IMG/VR virus record: IMGVR_UViG_3300045988_091615 | Coordinates: 1 to 25,518 of that record | Direction: 5' to 3' (one strand) | Source of the DNA: a virus | Lineage: Duplodnaviria; Heunggongvirae; Uroviricota; Caudoviricetes | DNA: 25,518 nucleotides | Part shown: positions 645-21,488 of the stretch, in pieces | Layout of the letters: every line of letters starts with the position of its first letter | Numbering within the stretch: the stretch's first letter is position 1 | Translations under genes and position numbers: made by a program | The notes under the pieces: model-generated | The model's input: only the letters and a program-made list of their open reading frames with translations | Database searches by the model: none | What the model was told of the DNA's origin: nothing

Positions 645-916
645 GCATTCGTATTGAAATTGGCGAACGTTATGTGGTTACCAGTGACAGCTTCCAGTTT
701 ATTCTCCACGAGAAAAAGAGAGCGGAAAGCGGTAAAAACGCCGGTCAGGAGTGGCTGGCGGTGGTTGGTTATTACCCGAAATTAAGCCAGCTCGTTTCCG
801 GCCTGATGCATCACGATATTCTGACCGGAAGCGCAAAGTCTTTTGCTGATTTAAACGCGCAGGTTGAGCAACTCAGCAAGCGTTGTTCAGAGGCTTTTGG
901 CTCATATGGCCGTTAA
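641..916 (+). CDS. Hypothetical early-operon protein (91 aa)
   Basis: ATG 641 overlaps the preceding stop. ORF ends TAA 914-916, overlapping the start of gene A. Same orientation and tight coupling as the flanking early genes. Confidence 0.6.
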   Translation: MSIRIEIGERYVVTSDSFQFILHEKKRAESGKNAGQEWLAVVGYYPKLSQLVSGLMHHDILTGSAKSFADLNAQVEQLSKRCSEAFGSYGR

Positions 917-3182
917 AGCCTCCGGGCGTTTTGTCCCTCCGTCAGCATTTGCCGCAGGCACCGGTAAGGCGTTTACCGGTGCTTATGCATGGAACGCGCC
1001 ACGCGAGGCTGTCGGGCGCGAAAGACCTCTTACACGTGACGAGATGCGTCAGGTGCAAGGTGTTTTATCCACGATTAACCGCCTGCCTTACTTTTTGCGC
1101 TCGCTGTTTACTTCACGCTATGACTACATCCGGCGCAATAAAAGCCCGGTGCACGGGTTTTATTTCCTCACATCCACTTTTCAGCGTCGTTTATGGCCGC
1201 GCATTGAGCGCGTGAATCAGCGCCATGAAATGAACACCGACGCGTCGTTACTGTTTCTGGCAGAGCGTGACCACTATGCGCGCCTGCCGGGAATGAATGA
1301 CAAGGAGCTGAAAAAATTTGCCGCCCGTATCTCATCGCAGCTTTTCATGATGTATGAGGAACTCTGCGATGCCTGGGTGGATGCCCATGGCGAAAAAGAA
1401 TCGCTGTTTACGGATGAGGCGCAGGCTCACCTGTATGGTCATGTTGCTGGCGCTGCACGTGCTTTCAATATTTCCCCGCTCTACTGGAAAAAATACCGTA
1501 AAGGACAGATGACCACGAGGCAGGCATATTCTGCCATTGCCCGCCTGTTTAACGATGAGTGGTGGACTCATCAGCTTAAAGGCCAGCGTATGCGCTGGCA
1601 TGAGGCGTTACTGATTGCTGTCGGGGAGGTCAATAAAGACCGTTCTCCTTATGCCAGTAAACATGCCATTCGTGATGTGCGTGCGCGCCGCCAGGCAAAT
1701 CTGGAATTTCTTAAATCGTGTGACCTTGAAAACAGGGAAACAGGCGAGCGCATCGACCTTATCAGTAAGGTGATGGGCAGTATTTCTAATCCTGAAATTC
1801 GCCGGATGGAGCTGATGAACACCATTGCCGGTATTGAGCGTTACGCCGCCGCAGAGGGTGATGTGGGGATGTTTATCACGCTTACCGCGCCGTCAAAGTA
1901 TCACCCGACACGTCAGGTCGGAAAAGGCGAAAGTAAAACCGTTCAGCTTAATCACGGCTGGAACGATGAGGCATTTAATCCAAAGGATGCGCAGCGTTAT
2001 CTCTGCCGTATCTGGAGCCTGATGCGCACGGCATTCAAGGATAATGATTTACAGGTCTACGGTTTGCGTGTCGTCGAGCCACACCACGACGGAACGCCGC
2101 ACTGGCATATGATGCTTTTTTGTAATCCGCGCCAGCGTAACCAGATTATCGAAATCATGCGTCGCTATGCGCTCAAAGAGGATGGCGACGAAAGAGGAGC
2201 CGCGCGAAACCGTTTTCAGGCAAAACACCTTAACCGGGGCGGTGCTGCGGGGTATATCGCGAAATACATCTCAAAAAACATCGACGGCTATGCACTGGAT
2301 GGTCAGTTCGATAACGATACCGGCAGGCCGCTTAAAGATACTGCCGCGGCTGTTACCGCATGGGCGTCAACGTGGCGCATTCCGCAATTTAAAACGGTTG
2401 GCCTGCCGACAATGGGGGCTTACCGTGAACTACGCAAATTGCCTCGTGGCGTCAGCATTGCTGATGAGTTTGACGAACGCGTCGAGGCTGCACGCGCCGC
2501 CGCAGACAGTGGTGATTTTGCGTTGTATATCAGCGCGCAGGGTGGGGCAAATGTCCCGCGCGATTGTCAGACTGTCAGGGTCGCCCGTAGCCCGTCGGAT
2601 GACGTTAACGAGTACGAGGAAGAAGTCGAGAGAGTGGTCGGCATTTACGCGCCGCATCTCGGCGCGCGTCATATTCATATCACCAGAACGACGGACTGGC
2701 GCATTGTGCCGAAAGTTCCGGTCGTTGAGCCTTTGACTTTAAAAAGCGGCATCGCCGCGCCTCGGAGTCCTGTCAATAACTGTGGAAAGCTCACCGGTGG
2801 TGATACTTCGTTACCGGCTCCCACGCCTTCTGAGCACGCCGCAGCAGTGCTTAATCTGGTTGATGACGGTGTTATCGAATGGTATGACCCGGAGGTCGTG
2901 AGGGCGCTCAGGGGCGCATTAAAACACGGCCTGAGAAGACCAAACCGTCAGCAAAGAAACGGAAGCCCGTTAAAACCGCATGAAATAGCGCCATCGGCCA
3001 GACTGACCCGGTCGGAAAGAATGCAAATTACCCGTATCCGCGTTGACCTTGCTCAGAACGGTATCAGGCCTCAGAGATGGGAGCTTGAGGCGCTGGCGCG
3101 TGGCGCGACTGTAAATTACGACGGTAAAAAATTCACGTATCCGGTCGCTGATGAGTGGCCGGGATTCACAATGGACCATTGA
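906..3182 (+). CDS. A: Rolling-circle replication initiation endonuclease, P2 gpA family
   Basis: Long ORF with the characteristic GpA motifs (HWHMMLF; AGYIAKYISKNIDGY with catalytic tyrosines). First ATG is at 906 with GAGG upstream; the ORF-track start at 864 is a TTG. From 906 the product is 758 aa, close to the ~761 aa I recall for P2 A. Confidence 0.9.
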   Translation: MAVKASGRFVPPSAFAAGTGKAFTGAYAWNAPREAVGRERPLTRDEMRQVQGVLSTINRLPYFLRSLFTSRYDYIRRNKSPVHGFYFLTSTFQRRLWPRIERVNQRHEMNTDASLLFLAERDHYARLPGMNDKELKKFAARISSQLFMMYEELCDAWVDAHGEKESLFTDEAQAHLYGHVAGAARAFNISPLYWKKYRKGQMTTRQAYSAIARLFNDEWWTHQLKGQRMRWHEALLIAVGEVNKDRSPYASKHAIRDVRARRQANLEFLKSCDLENRETGERIDLISKVMGSISNPEIRRMELMNTIAGIERYAAAEGDVGMFITLTAPSKYHPTRQVGKGESKTVQLNHGWNDEAFNPKDAQRYLCRIWSLMRTAFKDNDLQVYGLRVVEPHHDGTPHWHMMLFCNPRQRNQIIEIMRRYALKEDGDERGAARNRFQAKHLNRGGAAGYIAKYISKNIDGYALDGQFDNDTGRPLKDTAAAVTAWASTWRIPQFKTVGLPTMGAYRELRKLPRGVSIADEFDERVEAARAAADSGDFALYISAQGGANVPRDCQTVRVARSPSDDVNEYEEEVERVVGIYAPHLGARHIHITRTTDWRIVPKVPVVEPLTLKSGIAAPRSPVNNCGKLTGGDTSLPAPTPSEHAAAVLNLVDDGVIEWYDPEVVRALRGALKHGLRRPNRQQRNGSPLKPHEIAPSARLTRSERMQITRIRVDLAQNGIRPQRWELEALARGATVNYDGKKFTYPVADEWPGFTMDH

Positions 3183-3280
3183 TGATTAACATGAAAGAAT
3201 TACGGAGCTTGCTTATATCGTGTTATGTCAGTTTACTGGATACAGGGCAAGTGAATGCCCCTTTCCATGAATTAGATTAA
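3182..3280 (+). CDS. Micro-ORF (32 aa) translationally coupled to A; possible leader peptide or remnant at the cargo junction
   Basis: ATG 3182-3184 overlaps the A stop (TGATG). Translation MINMKELRSLLISCYVSLLDTGQVNAPFHELD, stop TAA 3278-3280, 11 nt before the cargo gene ATG. Below the ORF-track size cutoff; read by hand. Confidence 0.25.
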   Translation: MINMKELRSLLISCYVSLLDTGQVNAPFHELD

Positions 3281-3291
3281 AGGCTTGCAAA

Positions 3292-4623
3292 ATGAACAAT
3301 AACAGTAAGAAAACTTTGAGTAAGAAAAGAACCAAGAAAGCCAAAAAGAAGTCGCTTACCCCTGAACAAAAAGCATTGCAAGCAGAACAAGCAGCAAAAA
3401 AAGCGCAAATTATAGAGAATAGGCGCTCTATTACAGCTCATGCTATTAATCTTTTTCAGCAATATACAGCACTCCGTAAAAAAGGATTAGATAGTTCCAC
3501 TGCTACTTTGCAAGCTTATGCTGATTATGAAAAAGTACATGGACATAAATTCCTTAGTTCTGTCTCTATGTGGACAAAAATCAAAACTGAAGCAGGGATT
3601 CGGATCTATGATCTTGAGAGACAAGATAGCCGTAAATCGCTTAATCTTGCTAAGATTCCGACCCGTTTAGAGGCTAAGCGTAGTGTACTGACACAGAACC
3701 AAAAGAAAGTACATAACCAGAATGCAAATACATTACGCTTAATCGGTGGCAAAAAGCTACCTGTAACATCTATGGGGCTTATTGTATGCCCTGTCTGCGA
3801 GATACATATAAAAGATAGTGCTATAGAGTGGCATTTACGACACAACCACGTAGATCATGTAGATAACCCGTTTACTAACCCTATAGTAGCTCCTATTGAT
3901 ACCTTAGAAGAGACTGTAGAAATACGTGATCTACTAATTGGTGATAAAACACTTCCGATTAAATCTAGTACTATTAATATGGGGAGTTACAAGAAAGATA
4001 AACGTTATTTTAATAAGCAAGTTTATCAAACGGCATTGCTAACAATGACACAATCAGAAGCGTGGAAACTCGCGACTGATGAAGAATCTAGTATGACTTT
4101 TTTAAGCAATCAGTACATAAGTCCATTAACATCACCCGAACCCAATAATGAAATATCTCTTATCATGGATGGAACGGATATAGCCATTAATGAAAGTCTA
4201 ACTAATCCTTTCAAGGCCGCAAACGATACCTGTGCTACAGGACGAACAGTCGAGGTTACTCACAAAGTCCGTCATGCTGGAGATCAAGCTGATTTCAAAC
4301 GCCGTGTTTGGGATAACTTCAATGGCAGATGTGCTATTACTGGCTATCCATTGCCAGAGGGGATATTGGAAGCCGCACATATTGAAGCAATAACAGAATC
4401 AGCAAATAATAACACATCTAATGGCCTGTTACTTGAAGTAAGTTTACACCGAATGTTTGATAAAGGATTAATGGGGATTAATCCAGAGGACTTAACGGTT
4501 CATTTCTCTATTAATTGTATCCACAAAACTATGTTTGAGGGTAAAACTCTACAACCGCATCATGTAGAACTTGATGCTGGGAAGTTGATGACAAAATGGA
4601 AAAAGTTCCATGATAAGCGTTAA
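3292..4623 (+). CDS. Cargo protein with C-terminal HNH_2-type nuclease domain, internal C2H2-like zinc-finger motif and Lys-rich N-terminus (candidate defence effector)
   Basis: 443-aa ORF, ATG 3292 with AAGG 8 nt upstream, markedly AT-rich. C-terminus carries the HNH_2 signature GRCAITG...EAAHIEA...SNGLLLEVSLHRMFDKG. Mid-protein CPVCEIHIKDSAIEWHLRHNH resembles a C2H2 finger. N-terminal ~45 aa are highly basic (KKTLSKKRTKKAKKK...). Confidence 0.8.
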   Translation: MNNNSKKTLSKKRTKKAKKKSLTPEQKALQAEQAAKKAQIIENRRSITAHAINLFQQYTALRKKGLDSSTATLQAYADYEKVHGHKFLSSVSMWTKIKTEAGIRIYDLERQDSRKSLNLAKIPTRLEAKRSVLTQNQKKVHNQNANTLRLIGGKKLPVTSMGLIVCPVCEIHIKDSAIEWHLRHNHVDHVDNPFTNPIVAPIDTLEETVEIRDLLIGDKTLPIKSSTINMGSYKKDKRYFNKQVYQTALLTMTQSEAWKLATDEESSMTFLSNQYISPLTSPEPNNEISLIMDGTDIAINESLTNPFKAANDTCATGRTVEVTHKVRHAGDQADFKRRVWDNFNGRCAITGYPLPEGILEAAHIEAITESANNNTSNGLLLEVSLHRMFDKGLMGINPEDLTVHFSINCIHKTMFEGKTLQPHHVELDAGKLMTKWKKFHDKR

Positions 4624-4650
4624 CATGACTTCTTCTGGTGCAGAGAGGCG

Positions 4651-4679
4651 TTAGATTTAATTATGTATTATGATTTAAT
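4651..4679 (+). promoter_or_regulatory. Possible sigma70-like promoter for the second cargo gene
   Basis: TTAGAT (4651-4656), 17-nt spacer, TTTAAT (4674-4679) in the AT-rich 91-bp gap between the two cargo ORFs. Weak match, by eye only. Confidence 0.2.
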
Positions 4680-4714
4680 TTTGGGTGTGATTTGTTATAT
4701 GGGGAATAGATTAT

Positions 4715-5134
4715 ATGGTGACGCTTGATATGGTTTATTGGAAATTTGGTTATGCTTCGGAAGCAGCTCAATTACTGGAGACTGAGTTGATAAATGTTAT
4801 CACTGAGTATGATATGAGTCAGGGGAAAGATATACAGTCGCTGAAAAAACAGTTTTTAGAAATGGATAAATACACGCTGGGTAAATTGAATTACGCACTG
4901 AAGTCTAGGATGGTGGAGGATGCTGATACACTGGAGTATGTGTCAGATGCTCTTAAAGCCAGAAACTACTTGGCACATGATTTTTTTCGCGCTCATAATT
5001 TTGCCAAAGATACCCCAGCAGGACGGCAAAAAATGCTTGATGATTTACAAAAAACACACAACATTATTTTTGAGGCATACCGGAAAGTACTGCTAATTAG
5101 TGGCATCAAAATTCCACCTTTAGAAGATGATTAG
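4715..5134 (+). CDS. Small cargo protein (139 aa) with RNxxxH motif; possible HEPN-like RNase or partner/immunity protein
   Basis: ATG 4715 (alternative ATG at 4730), GGGGA 9 nt upstream, AT-rich, co-oriented with the HNH ORF. Contains KARNYLAHDFF, which fits the HEPN Rx4-6H (RNxxxH) signature. A short motif only. Confidence 0.65.
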   Translation: MVTLDMVYWKFGYASEAAQLLETELINVITEYDMSQGKDIQSLKKQFLEMDKYTLGKLNYALKSRMVEDADTLEYVSDALKARNYLAHDFFRAHNFAKDTPAGRQKMLDDLQKTHNIIFEAYRKVLLISGIKIPPLEDD

Positions 5135-5262
5135 CCGACGCCCGCAATAGTTGCATTATTCTGCATGGCTTTTAAGGGGCGGATCTACGTGACCACCGCC
5201 AGTACTGGTGCGTCTCCAGTGTGTTCATGCACCTGCATTAAAACCGACCCATGAAGCGGGCG

Positions 5263-5281
5263 GGCGAGGCGGGGAAAGCAC
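5263..5281. other. cos: cos site: 19-nt cohesive-end sequence GGCGAGGCGGGGAAAGCAC
   Basis: Exact match to the 19-nt P2 cohesive end as I remember it, at the expected position between the A-side cargo locus and the 3' end of Q. Flanked by an 11-bp inverted repeat (ACCACCGCCAG 5192-5202 / CTGGCGGTGGT 5288-5298) and a G+T-rich strand-biased stretch. Confidence 0.7.
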
Positions 5282-14694: not shown

Positions 14695-15480
14695 TTATGA
14701 GTGATTTTTATTTGATGCTTTGTATTCTAAAACCTTCTTATTGGCGTAAAAGAATTTTGTATATGACAGGAATATAACCAGACCTGAAGTGAAATAGACG
14801 AGGGATAGTATTAATAATGCTTTTTTGTGACTGTTATTATCTTTAATCTCCTGGCTTAACCATTCGGAGTCCTCCTCGTTTAGCTGTAAGAGCTTATTGC
14901 AGGCGATCTCAGGAAGTGTGTCTTTTATAAATACGTTTCGTAGCCTCTTGCAATCGGCAAGGCTATAAGTTTTATTGAATTCAACTGTTTTATTGTTGAA
15001 GGATAAAAGAACTTTGTCACTATAAACATAGTACATCATATTTTTATATGGTATGCCTATGGCATCTCTTACTATAGCGGATTGTTTGTTGTGTATATAA
15101 CATGCGAGGAGAATGTAAAAAATACTGGCCAGAATTACAATTATTGTTTTAATTATGTGTGGTGGTTTTGTTATGTCACCCCAGATGCGAGTAAGGAAAA
15201 AATACGATGTTTTTAGTTTTCCATCAATCAGTCCCTGCTGTATCATTCTCACATTTTCAATGCCTGATACATTGATTCCGTTAATTATTTTAAATAGTTG
15301 AATGTCGCGCCACTCGCGGTCAAGTCTTTTTAATTTTTTGTCTGAATATCCAAAATTGAAATAATGTGCAATAAGCCTCATAAGGTTACTTTTACCAAAG
15401 CTAAAAAATGCTAATACTGCAAAGCTACAAAGGAAAAAAACGATTAGCCCCCACACATTAGTCACATTATAGCTGACCAT
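14695..15480 (-). CDS. Cargo: predicted three-helix membrane protein (261 aa), unknown function
   Basis: Minus-strand ORF with a strong RBS (AAGGAG 6 nt upstream of the ATG ending at 15480), very AT-rich. Three hydrophobic stretches (VWGLIVFFLCSFAVLAFFSF; IIKTIIVILASIFYILLACYI; ALLILSLVYFTSGLVIFLSY). Inserted in opposite orientation between S and V. Confidence 0.8.
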   Translation of the reverse strand: MVSYNVTNVWGLIVFFLCSFAVLAFFSFGKSNLMRLIAHYFNFGYSDKKLKRLDREWRDIQLFKIINGINVSGIENVRMIQQGLIDGKLKTSYFFLTRIWGDITKPPHIIKTIIVILASIFYILLACYIHNKQSAIVRDAIGIPYKNMMYYVYSDKVLLSFNNKTVEFNKTYSLADCKRLRNVFIKDTLPEIACNKLLQLNEEDSEWLSQEIKDNNSHKKALLILSLVYFTSGLVIFLSYTKFFYANKKVLEYKASNKNHS

Positions 15481-20717: not shown

Positions 20718-21488
20718 TTACTCTTTAGCTCGTTTGGTCATCTCATTTGCTAACTGTGTAGACCAATAATGTTGACTCTTTGCTTCTAATATGAAAAGTA
20801 GCGCTCTCACACATTGTAGCTGAGCATGCACATAAGCATGAATATTACCAACTGAAGTAGGAACTAAGTGGGTTTCAGGTGTGTAGTAGTGGTAGATGCT
20901 CGTTTGTGAAGGATGAACATATTCGCTAAGTATGTCATAAGTCAGTTCAAAATCACTTTCCATCTGATTAGTCTGCTTCATCTCATCTTTATAGAGTTCG
21001 CGTAAAGCAGTCATCACATGCATACTGACAGCAAGTAGGTTTTCAAAACGATATTTAGCCTCCTCAGTAAACATGTAGTCGTTCGGGTCAAATACTCCTT
21101 TCTGAATCTTTTCTTGCTCTGACTTTTTAAATCGAGAACTATTCGTAAAGTTCAATATAACTTCGATAGCGTTATCTACACTTGCGTGGCCATTTTGGGT
21201 AGTCAAAATTTTCTCTACTTTCTTGTTTAAGAGTCGTGAGAAGGCATGAGTTTCAATCATTCCTCGGCTAACAATACAAGCGCTTTGGTATCGTTCGTTT
21301 TCGAGGAGGAGAAGCGCATCATCGAAGATGTCTATCTGCCTGTTCATAAGTAAATTGGCATAATTAACGAGATACAGTCCGCGGTCAGGGTTATGTGTTT
21401 TTTCGACAATTACACCATTAGTCTTGCTCAGCGCAGCTCTGGCGGCTTTTGCCTCATTCAGTCTCTGTTCTATAAGTTCTTTATACAT
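20718..21488 (-). CDS. Cargo: hypothetical soluble protein (256 aa), unknown function, at the P2 Z/fun position
   Basis: Minus-strand ORF, AAGGA upstream of the ATG ending at 21488, AT-rich, opposite orientation to the flanking G and FI. No domain recognised. Contains an Rx5H stretch (SRGMIETH), which is too loose to call HEPN. Confidence 0.8.
   Translation of the reverse strand: MYKELIEQRLNEAKAARAALSKTNGVIVEKTHNPDRGLYLVNYANLLMNRQIDIFDDALLLLENERYQSACIVSRGMIETHAFSRLLNKKVEKILTTQNGHASVDNAIEVILNFTNSSRFKKSEQEKIQKGVFDPNDYMFTEEAKYRFENLLAVSMHVMTALRELYKDEMKQTNQMESDFELTYDILSEYVHPSQTSIYHYYTPETHLVPTSVGNIHAYVHAQLQCVRALLFILEAKSQHYWSTQLANEMTKRAKE

What the first reader, a model, noticed from the sequence alone, without database searches (positions are those of the whole stretch)
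3183..5262. AT-rich two-gene cargo at the A-cos (P2 tin/old) hotspot: HNH-nuclease-domain protein plus small partner; candidate undescribed anti-phage system
Seen in sequence: G+C drops sharply right after the A stop and recovers at cos. The island carries two co-oriented ORFs. ORF1 (3292-4623, 443 aa) has a Lys-rich basic N-terminus, a C2H2-like motif (CPVCEIHIKDSAIEWHLRHNH) and a C-terminal HNH_2-type signature with the conserved Cys, His, Asn and His (GRCAITG / EAAHIE / SNGLL / LHRMFD). ORF2 is 4715-5134 (139 aa). Established knowledge: in P2 this interval holds tin and old, and P2-like prophages use it as a swap site for antiviral cargo (Rousset et al. 2022, as I recall). Inference: a nuclease effector with a companion protein at a defence hotspot is most simply a defence or abortive-infection module. 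I do not recognise this domain arrangement as a named system.
Basis: partly seen in the sequence, partly recalled or inferred. Interest (0 to 1): 0.85.

Follow-up and report, generated by a model that had tools for sequence, protein, structure and literature searches.

The report
Two independent cargo genes beside P2 cos
The AT-rich stretch at the end of this P2-like prophage holds two separately inherited, untested candidate anti-phage genes, a zinc-finger HNH DNA nuclease and a small HEPN-like probable RNase, rather than one two-gene defence system.

Summary
ORF1 (3292-4623) and ORF2 (4715-5134) lie in a 38% G+C island between gpA and cos (5263-5281). ORF1 has a conserved C2H2 zinc finger and a C-terminal HNH_2 domain. 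The "two-gene system" reading fails its own test. ORF1 relatives (64-78% identical) occur without ORF2 in a lambdoid prophage, a Pectobacterium mobile element and a Gabija-adjacent Citrobacter island. ORF2 relatives occur without ORF1 in 19 of 31 E. coli genomes that carry one, in Salmonella, Citrobacter and Kosakonia prophages, as gp38 of phage PSP3, and in 72 loci from many phyla with no conserved neighbour. In P2/186-like phages ORF2 is always the last gene, 129-138 nt before cos. ORF2 belongs to a large family with no Pfam model (about 2,000 clusters). It has a near-invariant RNxLxHxF motif and weak hits to seven HEPN families, so it is probably a stand-alone HEPN RNase. ORF1 is probably a solitary nuclease against foreign DNA with an unrecognised sensor region. 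Rousset et al. 2022 list the pair as "HNH_2 + hypothetical", but their table of tested systems does not include it. Modest interest: two plausible new variants of known kinds, not a new system.

The parts
864..3182 (+). gpA replication endonuclease. This is the left border of the hotspot (context, not cargo).
   Evidence: PF05840 Phage_GPA E 3e-124. G+C 0.538.
3183..3291 (+). AT-rich leader between the gpA stop and the ORF1 start, with only a weak promoter-like site (3165-3192).
   Evidence: The number of promoter-like sites in the region is no higher than in shuffled sequence.
3292..4623 (+). ORF1, 443 aa: a solitary zinc-finger HNH_2 nuclease (module 1, swapped-in cargo).
   Evidence: Present in 12 of 5426 complete E. 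coli genomes.
3361..3639 (+). ORF1 residues 24-116: three long helices predicted with confidence, preceded by a Lys-rich tail. This N-terminus varies across the family.
   Evidence: AlphaFold model, pLDDT 81-96 over this stretch. The alignment shows a different N-terminus in distant relatives.
3730..3861 (+). ORF1 residues 147-190: C2H2 zinc finger (C166, C169, H181, H186).
   Evidence: At least 90% conserved in 54 relatives. Weak C2H2 hits in PDB and Pfam. Beta-hairpin plus helix in the model.
4015..4113 (+). ORF1 residues 242-274: small conserved helical domain (Y245, A248, A257), no family match.
4270..4620 (+). ORF1 residues 327-443: HNH_2 nuclease domain (Pfam core 347-397, nt 4330-4482) with invariant C347, H363, N377, H386, H404.
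   Evidence: Nearest solved relative 6yex (VcaM4I), E 8e-5.
4637..4714 (+). Conserved leader of about 77 nt that travels with ORF2. The junction between the ORF1 module and the ORF2 cassette lies at about 4636/4637.
   Evidence: DNA alignment with E. coli ST131 and Salmonella prophages. The megablast match starts at window 4638.
4715..5134 (+). ORF2, 139 aa: all-helical protein of the PSP3 gp38 family, probably HEPN (module 2, cos-linked).
4961..4984 (+). ORF2 residues 83-90, R-N-Y-L-A-H-D-F: an Rx4H (HEPN-type) motif followed by x-F.
   Evidence: H88 invariant; R83, N84, L86 and F90 at least 90% conserved in 76 diverse members.
5144..5168 (+). TGCAT-rich element directly after the ORF2 stop, conserved in every ORF2-bearing prophage examined. 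Function unknown.
5263..5281 (+). cos cohesive-end sequence GGCGAGGCGGGGAAAGCAC. It lies 129 nt after the ORF2 stop.

Best explanation
The island is a stack of two separately inherited single-gene modules at the right end of a P2-like prophage. It is not one system.

Module 1 (ORF1) is a solitary DNA nuclease. It has a variable basic and helical N-terminus, a C2H2 zinc finger, a small helical domain and a C-terminal HNH_2 (His-Me finger) catalytic domain. It moves as a single gene between accessory sites of unrelated mobile elements. Inferred: it is a defence nuclease that cuts incoming phage DNA. It tells foreign from host DNA through its N-terminal and zinc-finger region, as type IV (modification-dependent) HNH enzymes do with their reader domains. 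No methyltransferase or immunity gene accompanies it in any context examined.

Module 2 (ORF2) is a 139-aa helical protein of the PSP3 gp38 family. In P2/186-like phages it is always the last gene before cos, whatever cargo lies upstream. In many other bacteria it is a solitary gene. Inferred: it is a minimal HEPN-type, metal-independent RNase that acts as a dimer through its RNxLxH site. It would work as a stand-alone abortive-infection or toxin-like effector that is latent until infection. The Tyr that MntA antitoxins AMPylate in HepT toxins is a Phe here, which fits the lack of any antitoxin neighbour.

Shown: domain content, conservation, independence of the two genes, the cos linkage, purifying selection and the defence-rich neighbourhoods of ORF1 relatives. 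Inferred: nuclease and RNase activity, targets, triggers and any anti-phage phenotype.
For: Independence of the two genes. ORF1 relatives lack any ORF2-like gene (tblastn and HMM searches) in four settings: a lambdoid prophage beside a CAP12-PCTIR_TIR gene (78% identity), a Pectobacterium integrase/relaxase element, a Citrobacter island beside a Gabija-like AAA_15/TOPRIM plus UvrD pair, and an E. coli island beside a PARIS-like AAA_15/21 plus DUF4435 pair.

ORF2 relatives lack ORF1 in 19 of the 31 complete E. coli genomes that carry one. They follow other cargo instead: PDC-M18A/B plus PDC-S31 in the ST131-type strain SaT040, DUF3850, DinI plus a 243-aa protein in Salmonella, and two small ORFs in Citrobacter. 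In Kosakonia, ORF2 follows DinI and a GmrSD_N gene lies beyond cos. 72 loci from many phyla contain no ORF1 and no conserved neighbour.

A 97%-identical ORF1 pairs with an 84% ORF2 allele in L076. ORF1 is IS3-disrupted in strain W13-16 while ORF2 is intact.

cos lies 129-138 nt after the ORF2 stop in 9 loci, and gp38 ends 128 nt from the right end of the PSP3 genome. ORF2 alleles are 72-99% identical among prophages whose gpA and portal are 97.5-99% identical.

ORF1 chemistry. HNH_2 passes Pfam's cut-off and the catalytic residues are invariant. The nearest solved relative is the type IV enzyme VcaM4I (PMC7897488). No methyltransferase appears in any context examined.

Against: No experiment supports defence by either gene. 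ORF1 has no recognisable modified-base reader domain, and Foldseek found nothing, so the type IV analogy rests on the nuclease domain alone. HNH_2 also occurs in type IIS enzymes (PMC5714182) and in lytic Salmonella phages.

In E. coli every ORF1 copy does sit next to an ORF2 (12 of 12), so a local functional interaction cannot be excluded. ORF2's fixed distance from cos could reflect a phage-side role rather than defence. Distant ORF2 homologues are mostly surrounded by housekeeping genes, not by defence islands.
Confidence: 0.55

Rival explanations
1. One reading: ORF1 and ORF2 form one two-gene defence or abortive-infection system, with an HNH effector and a small sensor, regulator or immunity partner.
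For: The genes are co-oriented and 91 nt apart. All 12 E. coli genomes with ORF1 have ORF2 directly downstream. Rousset's table lists three accession combinations of 'HNH_2 + hypothetical'.
Against: All ORF1 copies in P2 prophages are at least 97% identical, so they can be explained by one ancestral insertion. Every more diverged ORF1 relative examined lacks ORF2. ORF2 occurs far more widely without ORF1. ORF2 brings its own conserved leader, and the junction with the ORF1 module lies between the two genes. ORF2 survives intact where ORF1 is IS-disrupted.
Confidence: 0.12
2. ORF1 is a selfish free-standing HNH endonuclease of the homing type, or one that otherwise serves the phage. It would spread into intergenic sites of mobile elements rather than act as a host-protecting defence gene.
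For: HNH plus a DNA-binding finger is a typical homing-endonuclease layout. The gene appears at unrelated sites in different elements. Its HNH_2 domain has 34-48% identical relatives in lytic Salmonella and Pantoea phages.
Against: Every insertion site is a known accessory or defence hotspot next to TIR, Gabija-like or PARIS-like genes. None is inside or beside a conserved target gene. There is one copy per genome. The closest characterised nuclease domains are restriction enzymes.
Confidence: 0.1
3. ORF2 is not a defence effector. It would be a phage-side gene tied to the genome end, such as a counter-defence factor, a lysogeny or induction modulator, or a non-catalytic HEPN-like binding protein.
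For: It is invariably the last gene, 129-138 nt before cos, across P2-type and 186-type phages. It is present in the virion genome of PSP3. It has no antitoxin, although minimal HEPN toxins normally have one. The HEPN assignment is below significance.
Against: The family is mostly found outside P2 phages, as a solitary chromosomal gene in many phyla. The putative catalytic R, N and H are at least 90% conserved across 76 diverse members. Alleles diverge far faster than the phage backbone, as expected for conflict genes.
Confidence: 0.2

Closest known systems
HNH_2-type modification-dependent (type IV) restriction endonucleases, such as VcaM4I (EVE-HNH, PDB 6yex), TagI and ScoA3IV (SRA-HNH), and by analogy prophage-encoded EcoKMcrA
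   Same: C-terminal HNH_2 His-Me finger with the same conserved Cys, His, Asn and His pattern. A single polypeptide with no methyltransferase partner. Carried on mobile elements.
   Different: The N-terminal part is not an EVE, SRA, PUA, YTH, SBD or winged-helix reader. It consists of long helices, a C2H2 zinc finger and a small helical domain with no family match. Modification dependence is untested. The similarity covers the nuclease domain only (E 8e-5).
P2 old and tin, and the validated P2-hotspot systems of Rousset et al. 2022 and Vassallo et al. 2022
   Same: Same locus, between gpA and cos. Same AT-rich moron character and same modular swapping.
   Different: No sequence relationship to any of them in PADLOC. 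The pair is listed in Rousset's Table S5, but these accessions are not in the table of tested systems.
[quoted passage not shown]
   Same: Small size, all-helical, and an RNxxxH motif followed two residues later by an aromatic residue (RX4HXY in HepT, RNxLxHxF here). One family member is fused to a HepT-like domain.
   Different: No MNT gene is adjacent. The AMPylated Tyr is replaced by Phe. No significant Pfam HepT hit (best E 0.074).
ApeA and other single-protein HEPN defence effectors
   Same: A stand-alone HEPN-type protein with no partner. Apea-like HEPN is the most frequent weak Pfam hit (5 of 76 members), and Cas13-ApeA models hit in PADLOC.
   Different: All hits are below significance. 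At 139 aa, ORF2 is a bare domain with no attached sensor region. From memory, not checked here, ApeA is much larger.
gp38 (orf38) of Salmonella phage PSP3
   Same: Same family (71% identity, full length) and same position as the last gene before the right genome end.
   Different: gp38 is itself uncharacterised. In PSP3 it follows tumA, tumB (DinI) and gp37, not an HNH gene.

Membership tests
HNH_2 / His-Me finger nucleases (PF13391) - ORF1 | Profile match above the curated cut-off | tested here: met
   42.1 bits against a cut-off of 21, residues 347-397. All 54 relatives match.
HNH_2 / His-Me finger nucleases (PF13391) - ORF1 | Catalytic His, Asn and His and the flanking Cys are conserved | tested here: met
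   C347, H363, N377, H386 and H404 are invariant in 54 sequences.
Type IV modification-dependent HNH restriction enzymes - ORF1 | A recognisable modified-base reader domain (SRA, EVE, PUA, YTH, SBD or winged helix) fused to the nuclease | tested here: not met
   No such Pfam hit in ORF1 or any of 54 relatives. Foldseek against PDB found nothing.
Type IV modification-dependent HNH restriction enzymes - ORF1 | Solitary nuclease without a cognate methyltransferase | tested here: met
   No methyltransferase next to ORF1 or its relatives in six contexts.
Type IV modification-dependent HNH restriction enzymes - ORF1 | Cleavage depends on a DNA modification | not testable with these tools
   Needs biochemistry or plaque assays with modified and unmodified phages.
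Type II/IIS R-M with an HNH_2 nuclease (AlwI, HphI, BbrI) - ORF1 | An adjacent protective methyltransferase | tested here: not met
   Same contexts as above. The family is described in PMC5714182.
A named two-gene defence system (PADLOC-DB v2, for example PD-Lambda-3) | Both components match the system's models | tested here: not met
   ORF1 matches only generic HNH models. ORF2 hits PD-Lambda-3_B at E 0.002 over 60 residues, and there is no A component.
HEPN superfamily - ORF2 | A conserved Rx4-6H motif | tested here: met
   R83-N-x-L-x-H88. H88 is invariant; R83 and N84 are at least 90% conserved in 76 members.
HEPN superfamily - ORF2 | A compact all-alpha bundle fold | tested here: met
   Model pLDDT 90 with five helices.
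HEPN superfamily - ORF2 | A statistically significant profile or structure match to a known HEPN family | tested here: inconclusive
HepT/MntA type VII toxin-antitoxin - ORF2 | A neighbouring MNT nucleotidyltransferase and the acceptor Tyr in RX4HXY | tested here: not met
   No MNT and no conserved neighbour. The position is Phe in at least 90% of members. The motif is defined in PMC7641770.

The most novel reading that the evidence does not exclude
ORF2 (the PSP3 gp38 family, about 2,000 clusters at 50% identity, no Pfam model) is a new, widespread branch of HEPN RNases that lacks an antitoxin and works as a single-gene immunity or abortive-infection module. P2/186-like phages would keep it welded to their cos end. 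ORF1 would found a family of defence nucleases in which a C2H2 zinc finger, rather than a PUA- or SRA-type reader, guides an HNH_2 domain to phage DNA.
Probability: 0.3. Interest if true: 0.6.

Novelty: new variant of a known kind. Interest (0 to 1): 0.4.

Why it matters
If either gene protects against phage, it adds a compact single-gene module to the catalogue of P2-hotspot defences. ORF1 would show a non-canonical, zinc-finger-based way of aiming an HNH_2 nuclease at foreign DNA. ORF2 would put a function on a large unannotated protein family found across many phyla. It would also raise the question of how a bare HEPN domain is kept harmless without an antitoxin. The case is a practical warning too: adjacency in a swap hotspot does not make a system, because these hotspots stack independent modules.

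Tried and rejected
- Foldseek of the ORF1 model against PDB gave nothing with E below 1. The model is a string of domains (pTM 0.30).
- The afdb50 library was unavailable.
- PDB sequence-profile searches with the ORF2 alignments A2 and A3 returned only chance hits.
- hhalign of the ORF2 profile against the fused HepT-like domain of P0168 found no similarity, but the template was a single degenerate sequence, so the test is uninformative.
- A 139-aa ORF near the Cronobacter ORF1 relative looked like a possible ORF2. It is an unrelated protein with a signal-peptide-like N-terminus.
- A cryptic upstream partner for ORF2 was considered, because 43 of 52 upstream neighbours are co-oriented. They share no family by BLAST clustering or Pfam.
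- ORF1 as a packaging-associated HNH was rejected. It is present in only 12 of 5426 genomes, although P2-like prophages are far commoner.
- Promoter-like sites in the island are no more frequent than in shuffled sequence.
- Rfam found no RNA family in the window.
- No paper mentions the three protein accessions searched: WP_023304084 (ORF1-type), WP_023281582 (ORF2-type) and WP_001576649 (the ORF2 homologue of strain SaT040).
Full report
**Observation.** The window carries the early and late regions of a P2-like prophage. gpA (864-3182; PF05840, E 3e-124) is followed by two co-oriented ORFs, 3292-4623 (443 aa) and 4715-5134 (139 aa), and then by the portal gene on the opposite strand. G+C falls from 0.52-0.59 to 0.34-0.42 across the two ORFs. 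By gene: ORF1 0.378, ORF2 0.383, gpA 0.538, portal 0.534. The 19-nt P2 cohesive-end sequence, recalled from memory, occurs once, at 5263-5281. Sequenced Peduovirus genomes end exactly at window 5262.

**ORF1.** PF13391 HNH_2 matches residues 347-397 above the curated cut-off. PADLOC gives only generic HNH models. NCBIfam gives a far sub-threshold hit to a phosphorothioate-dependent restriction enzyme. Across 54 relatives the HNH residues C347, H363, N377, H386 and H404 are invariant, and the C2H2 residues C166, C169, H181 and H186 are at least 90% conserved. The AlphaFold model (pLDDT 67, pTM 0.30) shows separate folded pieces joined by disordered linkers: three long helices (24-116), a hairpin-helix zinc finger (147-190), a small helical domain (242-274) and the HNH domain (329-443). 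The nearest solved relative by sequence profile is 6yex, the EVE-HNH type IV enzyme VcaM4I (E 8e-5, nuclease domain only; PMC7897488). No modified-base reader domain is detectable, and Foldseek found nothing. HNH_2 also occurs in type IIS enzymes that need a methyltransferase (PMC5714182). No methyltransferase accompanies ORF1 or its relatives in any context examined.

**ORF2.** There is no Pfam hit. An alignment of 31 relatives, and then of 76, shows an invariant H88. R83, N84, L86 and F90 are at least 90% conserved, giving the motif R-N-x-L-x-H-x-F. An N-terminal E-A-A-Q-L-L-E-x-E-L helix is also conserved. This is the Rx4H signature of HEPN RNases. It closely resembles the RX4HXY motif of HepT toxins, whose Tyr is AMPylated by the MntA antitoxin (PMC7641770); here that position is Phe. 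The model is confident (pLDDT 90) and all-helical.

**Do the two genes travel together? No.**
- ORF1 relatives at 64-78% identity sit alone in three settings: a lambdoid prophage beside a TIR gene, a Pectobacterium integrase/relaxase element, and a Citrobacter island beside a Gabija-like pair.
- More distant ORF1 relatives sit beside a PARIS-like pair in E. coli and in a small integrase island in Cronobacter.
- None of these loci has an ORF2-like gene by tblastn or HMM search.
- ORF2-like genes occur in 31 of 5426 complete E. coli genomes and ORF1 in only 12.
- The other ORF2 copies follow different cargo: PDC-M18A/B plus PDC-S31 in strain SaT040, DUF3850, DinI plus a 243-aa protein in Salmonella, and two small ORFs in Citrobacter. 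In Kosakonia ORF2 follows DinI. In phage PSP3 it is gp38.
- Seventy-two loci from Acidobacteriota, Gemmatimonadota, Planctomycetota, many Proteobacteria and other phyla contain no ORF1. They have no conserved neighbour by clustering or Pfam.
- A 97%-identical ORF1 is joined to an 84% ORF2 allele in L076.
- In strain W13-16, ORF1 is split by IS3 while ORF2 stays intact.

**Anatomy of the ORF2 cassette.** Homology between ORF2-bearing prophages starts about 77 nt upstream of the ATG, at about window 4637. The junction with the ORF1 module therefore lies between the two genes. In nine loci the cos core lies 129 nt after the ORF2 stop, or 138 nt in one locus that has an extra 9-nt repeat. This includes two loci where additional cargo sits on the other side of cos, between cos and the portal gene. 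PSP3 gp38 ends 128 nt from the right genome end. ORF2 is therefore a cos-linked right-end gene found in both P2-type and 186-type phages. Even so, its alleles range from 72% to 99% identity among prophages whose gpA and portal are 97.5-99% identical. Both genes are under purifying selection (dN/dS 0.13-0.28).

**Literature.** The gpA-cos interval is an established defence hotspot (PMC9122126; PMC9519451; PMC13586616). Rousset et al.'s locus table already lists "HNH_2 + hypothetical, WP_023304084 + WP_023281582", as well as the ST131-type four-gene arrangement that contains the ORF2 homologue. None of these accessions, and no "HNH", appears in their table of tested systems. No paper mentions the accessions.

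**Interpretation.** The most economical reading is two stacked, autonomous modules. ORF1 is a solitary zinc-finger HNH_2 nuclease that hops between defence-rich accessory sites. It is probably a nuclease against foreign DNA whose discrimination lies in its unrecognised N-terminal region; it works like a type IV enzyme but fails the membership test for a known reader domain. ORF2 is a probable minimal HEPN RNase without an antitoxin, whose role (abortive infection, or a phage-side function tied to cos) is open. Three rivals remain possible at lower probability: an obligate two-gene system, a selfish homing-type HNH, and a non-defence ORF2.

**Verdict.** This is a new variant of known kinds, not a new system, and interest is moderate (0.4). 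The most interesting thread is the ORF2/gp38 family itself.

Noticed in passing
window 14695-15480 (- strand), low-G+C island about 14.6-15.6 kb: A 261-aa minus-strand ORF in a 34% G+C island between tail genes S and V (the orf30 position of P2). RefSeq annotates it as hypothetical. At least 80% of the segment is present in 460 of 5426 complete E. coli genomes. It is absent from the GPEC1446 prophage, whose A-cos cargo is identical to the window's.
   Followed up: partly
window 20718-21488 (- strand), low-G+C region about 19.2-21.8 kb: A 256-aa minus-strand ORF at the Z/fun position, between tail-fibre assembly and sheath genes. Matching genomes annotate it as a DUF5677 domain protein, and only 8 genomes carry the full segment. 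A DUF6988/DUF5677-like protein also sits directly downstream of a distant ORF2 homologue in an Acidobacteriota MAG (L003:10476-11078). This may be coincidence.
   Followed up: partly
L100:6677-8220 and L101:6631-8409: In Citrobacter and Kosakonia prophages, extra cargo (273-aa plus 239-aa proteins, or a 592-aa GmrSD_N protein) lies between the cos core and the portal gene. That places it on the left-end side of cos, a second insertion site within the gpA-gpQ interval.
   Followed up: partly
window 5144-5168; L001:6507-6530: A TGCAT-rich element (GCATTAGATGCATT-like) directly follows the ORF2 stop in every ORF2-bearing prophage examined. One 9-nt unit is duplicated in the ST131-type locus. It is not found at megablast level in Peduovirus genomes that lack ORF2. 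Its function is unknown; it could be a terminator, an operator or part of an extended cos region.
   Followed up: partly
NZ_CP080235.1 (E. coli W13-16), match to window 3292-4623: ORF1 is interrupted by an IS3-family element after nt 752 of the gene, while ORF2 downstream is 100% identical and intact.
   Followed up: no
L088:6001-7509 (P0003), L092:6001-7524 (P0007), P0010: The roughly 500-aa Citrobacter, Pectobacterium and Enterobacter ORF1 homologues carry an extra segment of about 55 aa between the zinc finger and the small helical domain (RVNRTTGEKYISFW...KWFD). It is absent from the window protein, from the lambdoid-prophage copy and from the distant relatives. By eye it resembles an AP2-type DNA-binding sheet, but no Pfam hit at E 0.01 or better supports this.
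   Followed up: partly
P0168 and P0373 (metagenomic, 279 aa): An ORF2-like domain (1-143, motif ARNRLIHGFF in P0168, ARNGLSHGFF in P0373) is fused to a HepT-like PF01934 domain (167-263). In P0168, the copy inspected, the HepT-like domain appears to have lost its own Rx4H motif.
   Followed up: partly
L114 (NZ_CM142773.1, GPEC1446 prophage): A prophage with 100% identical A-cos cargo has an IS21-family element (ISEc12) inside tail-fibre gene H and a different set of tail-region accessory genes. This illustrates mosaic exchange around identical cargo.
   Followed up: no
L003-L068, genes directly upstream of distant ORF2 homologues: 43 of 52 upstream neighbours are co-oriented and often end within tens of bases of the ORF2 start, yet they share no detectable family. 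The gene calls were crude (longest-ORF calling in high-G+C DNA), so a very divergent small partner cannot be fully excluded.
   Followed up: partly
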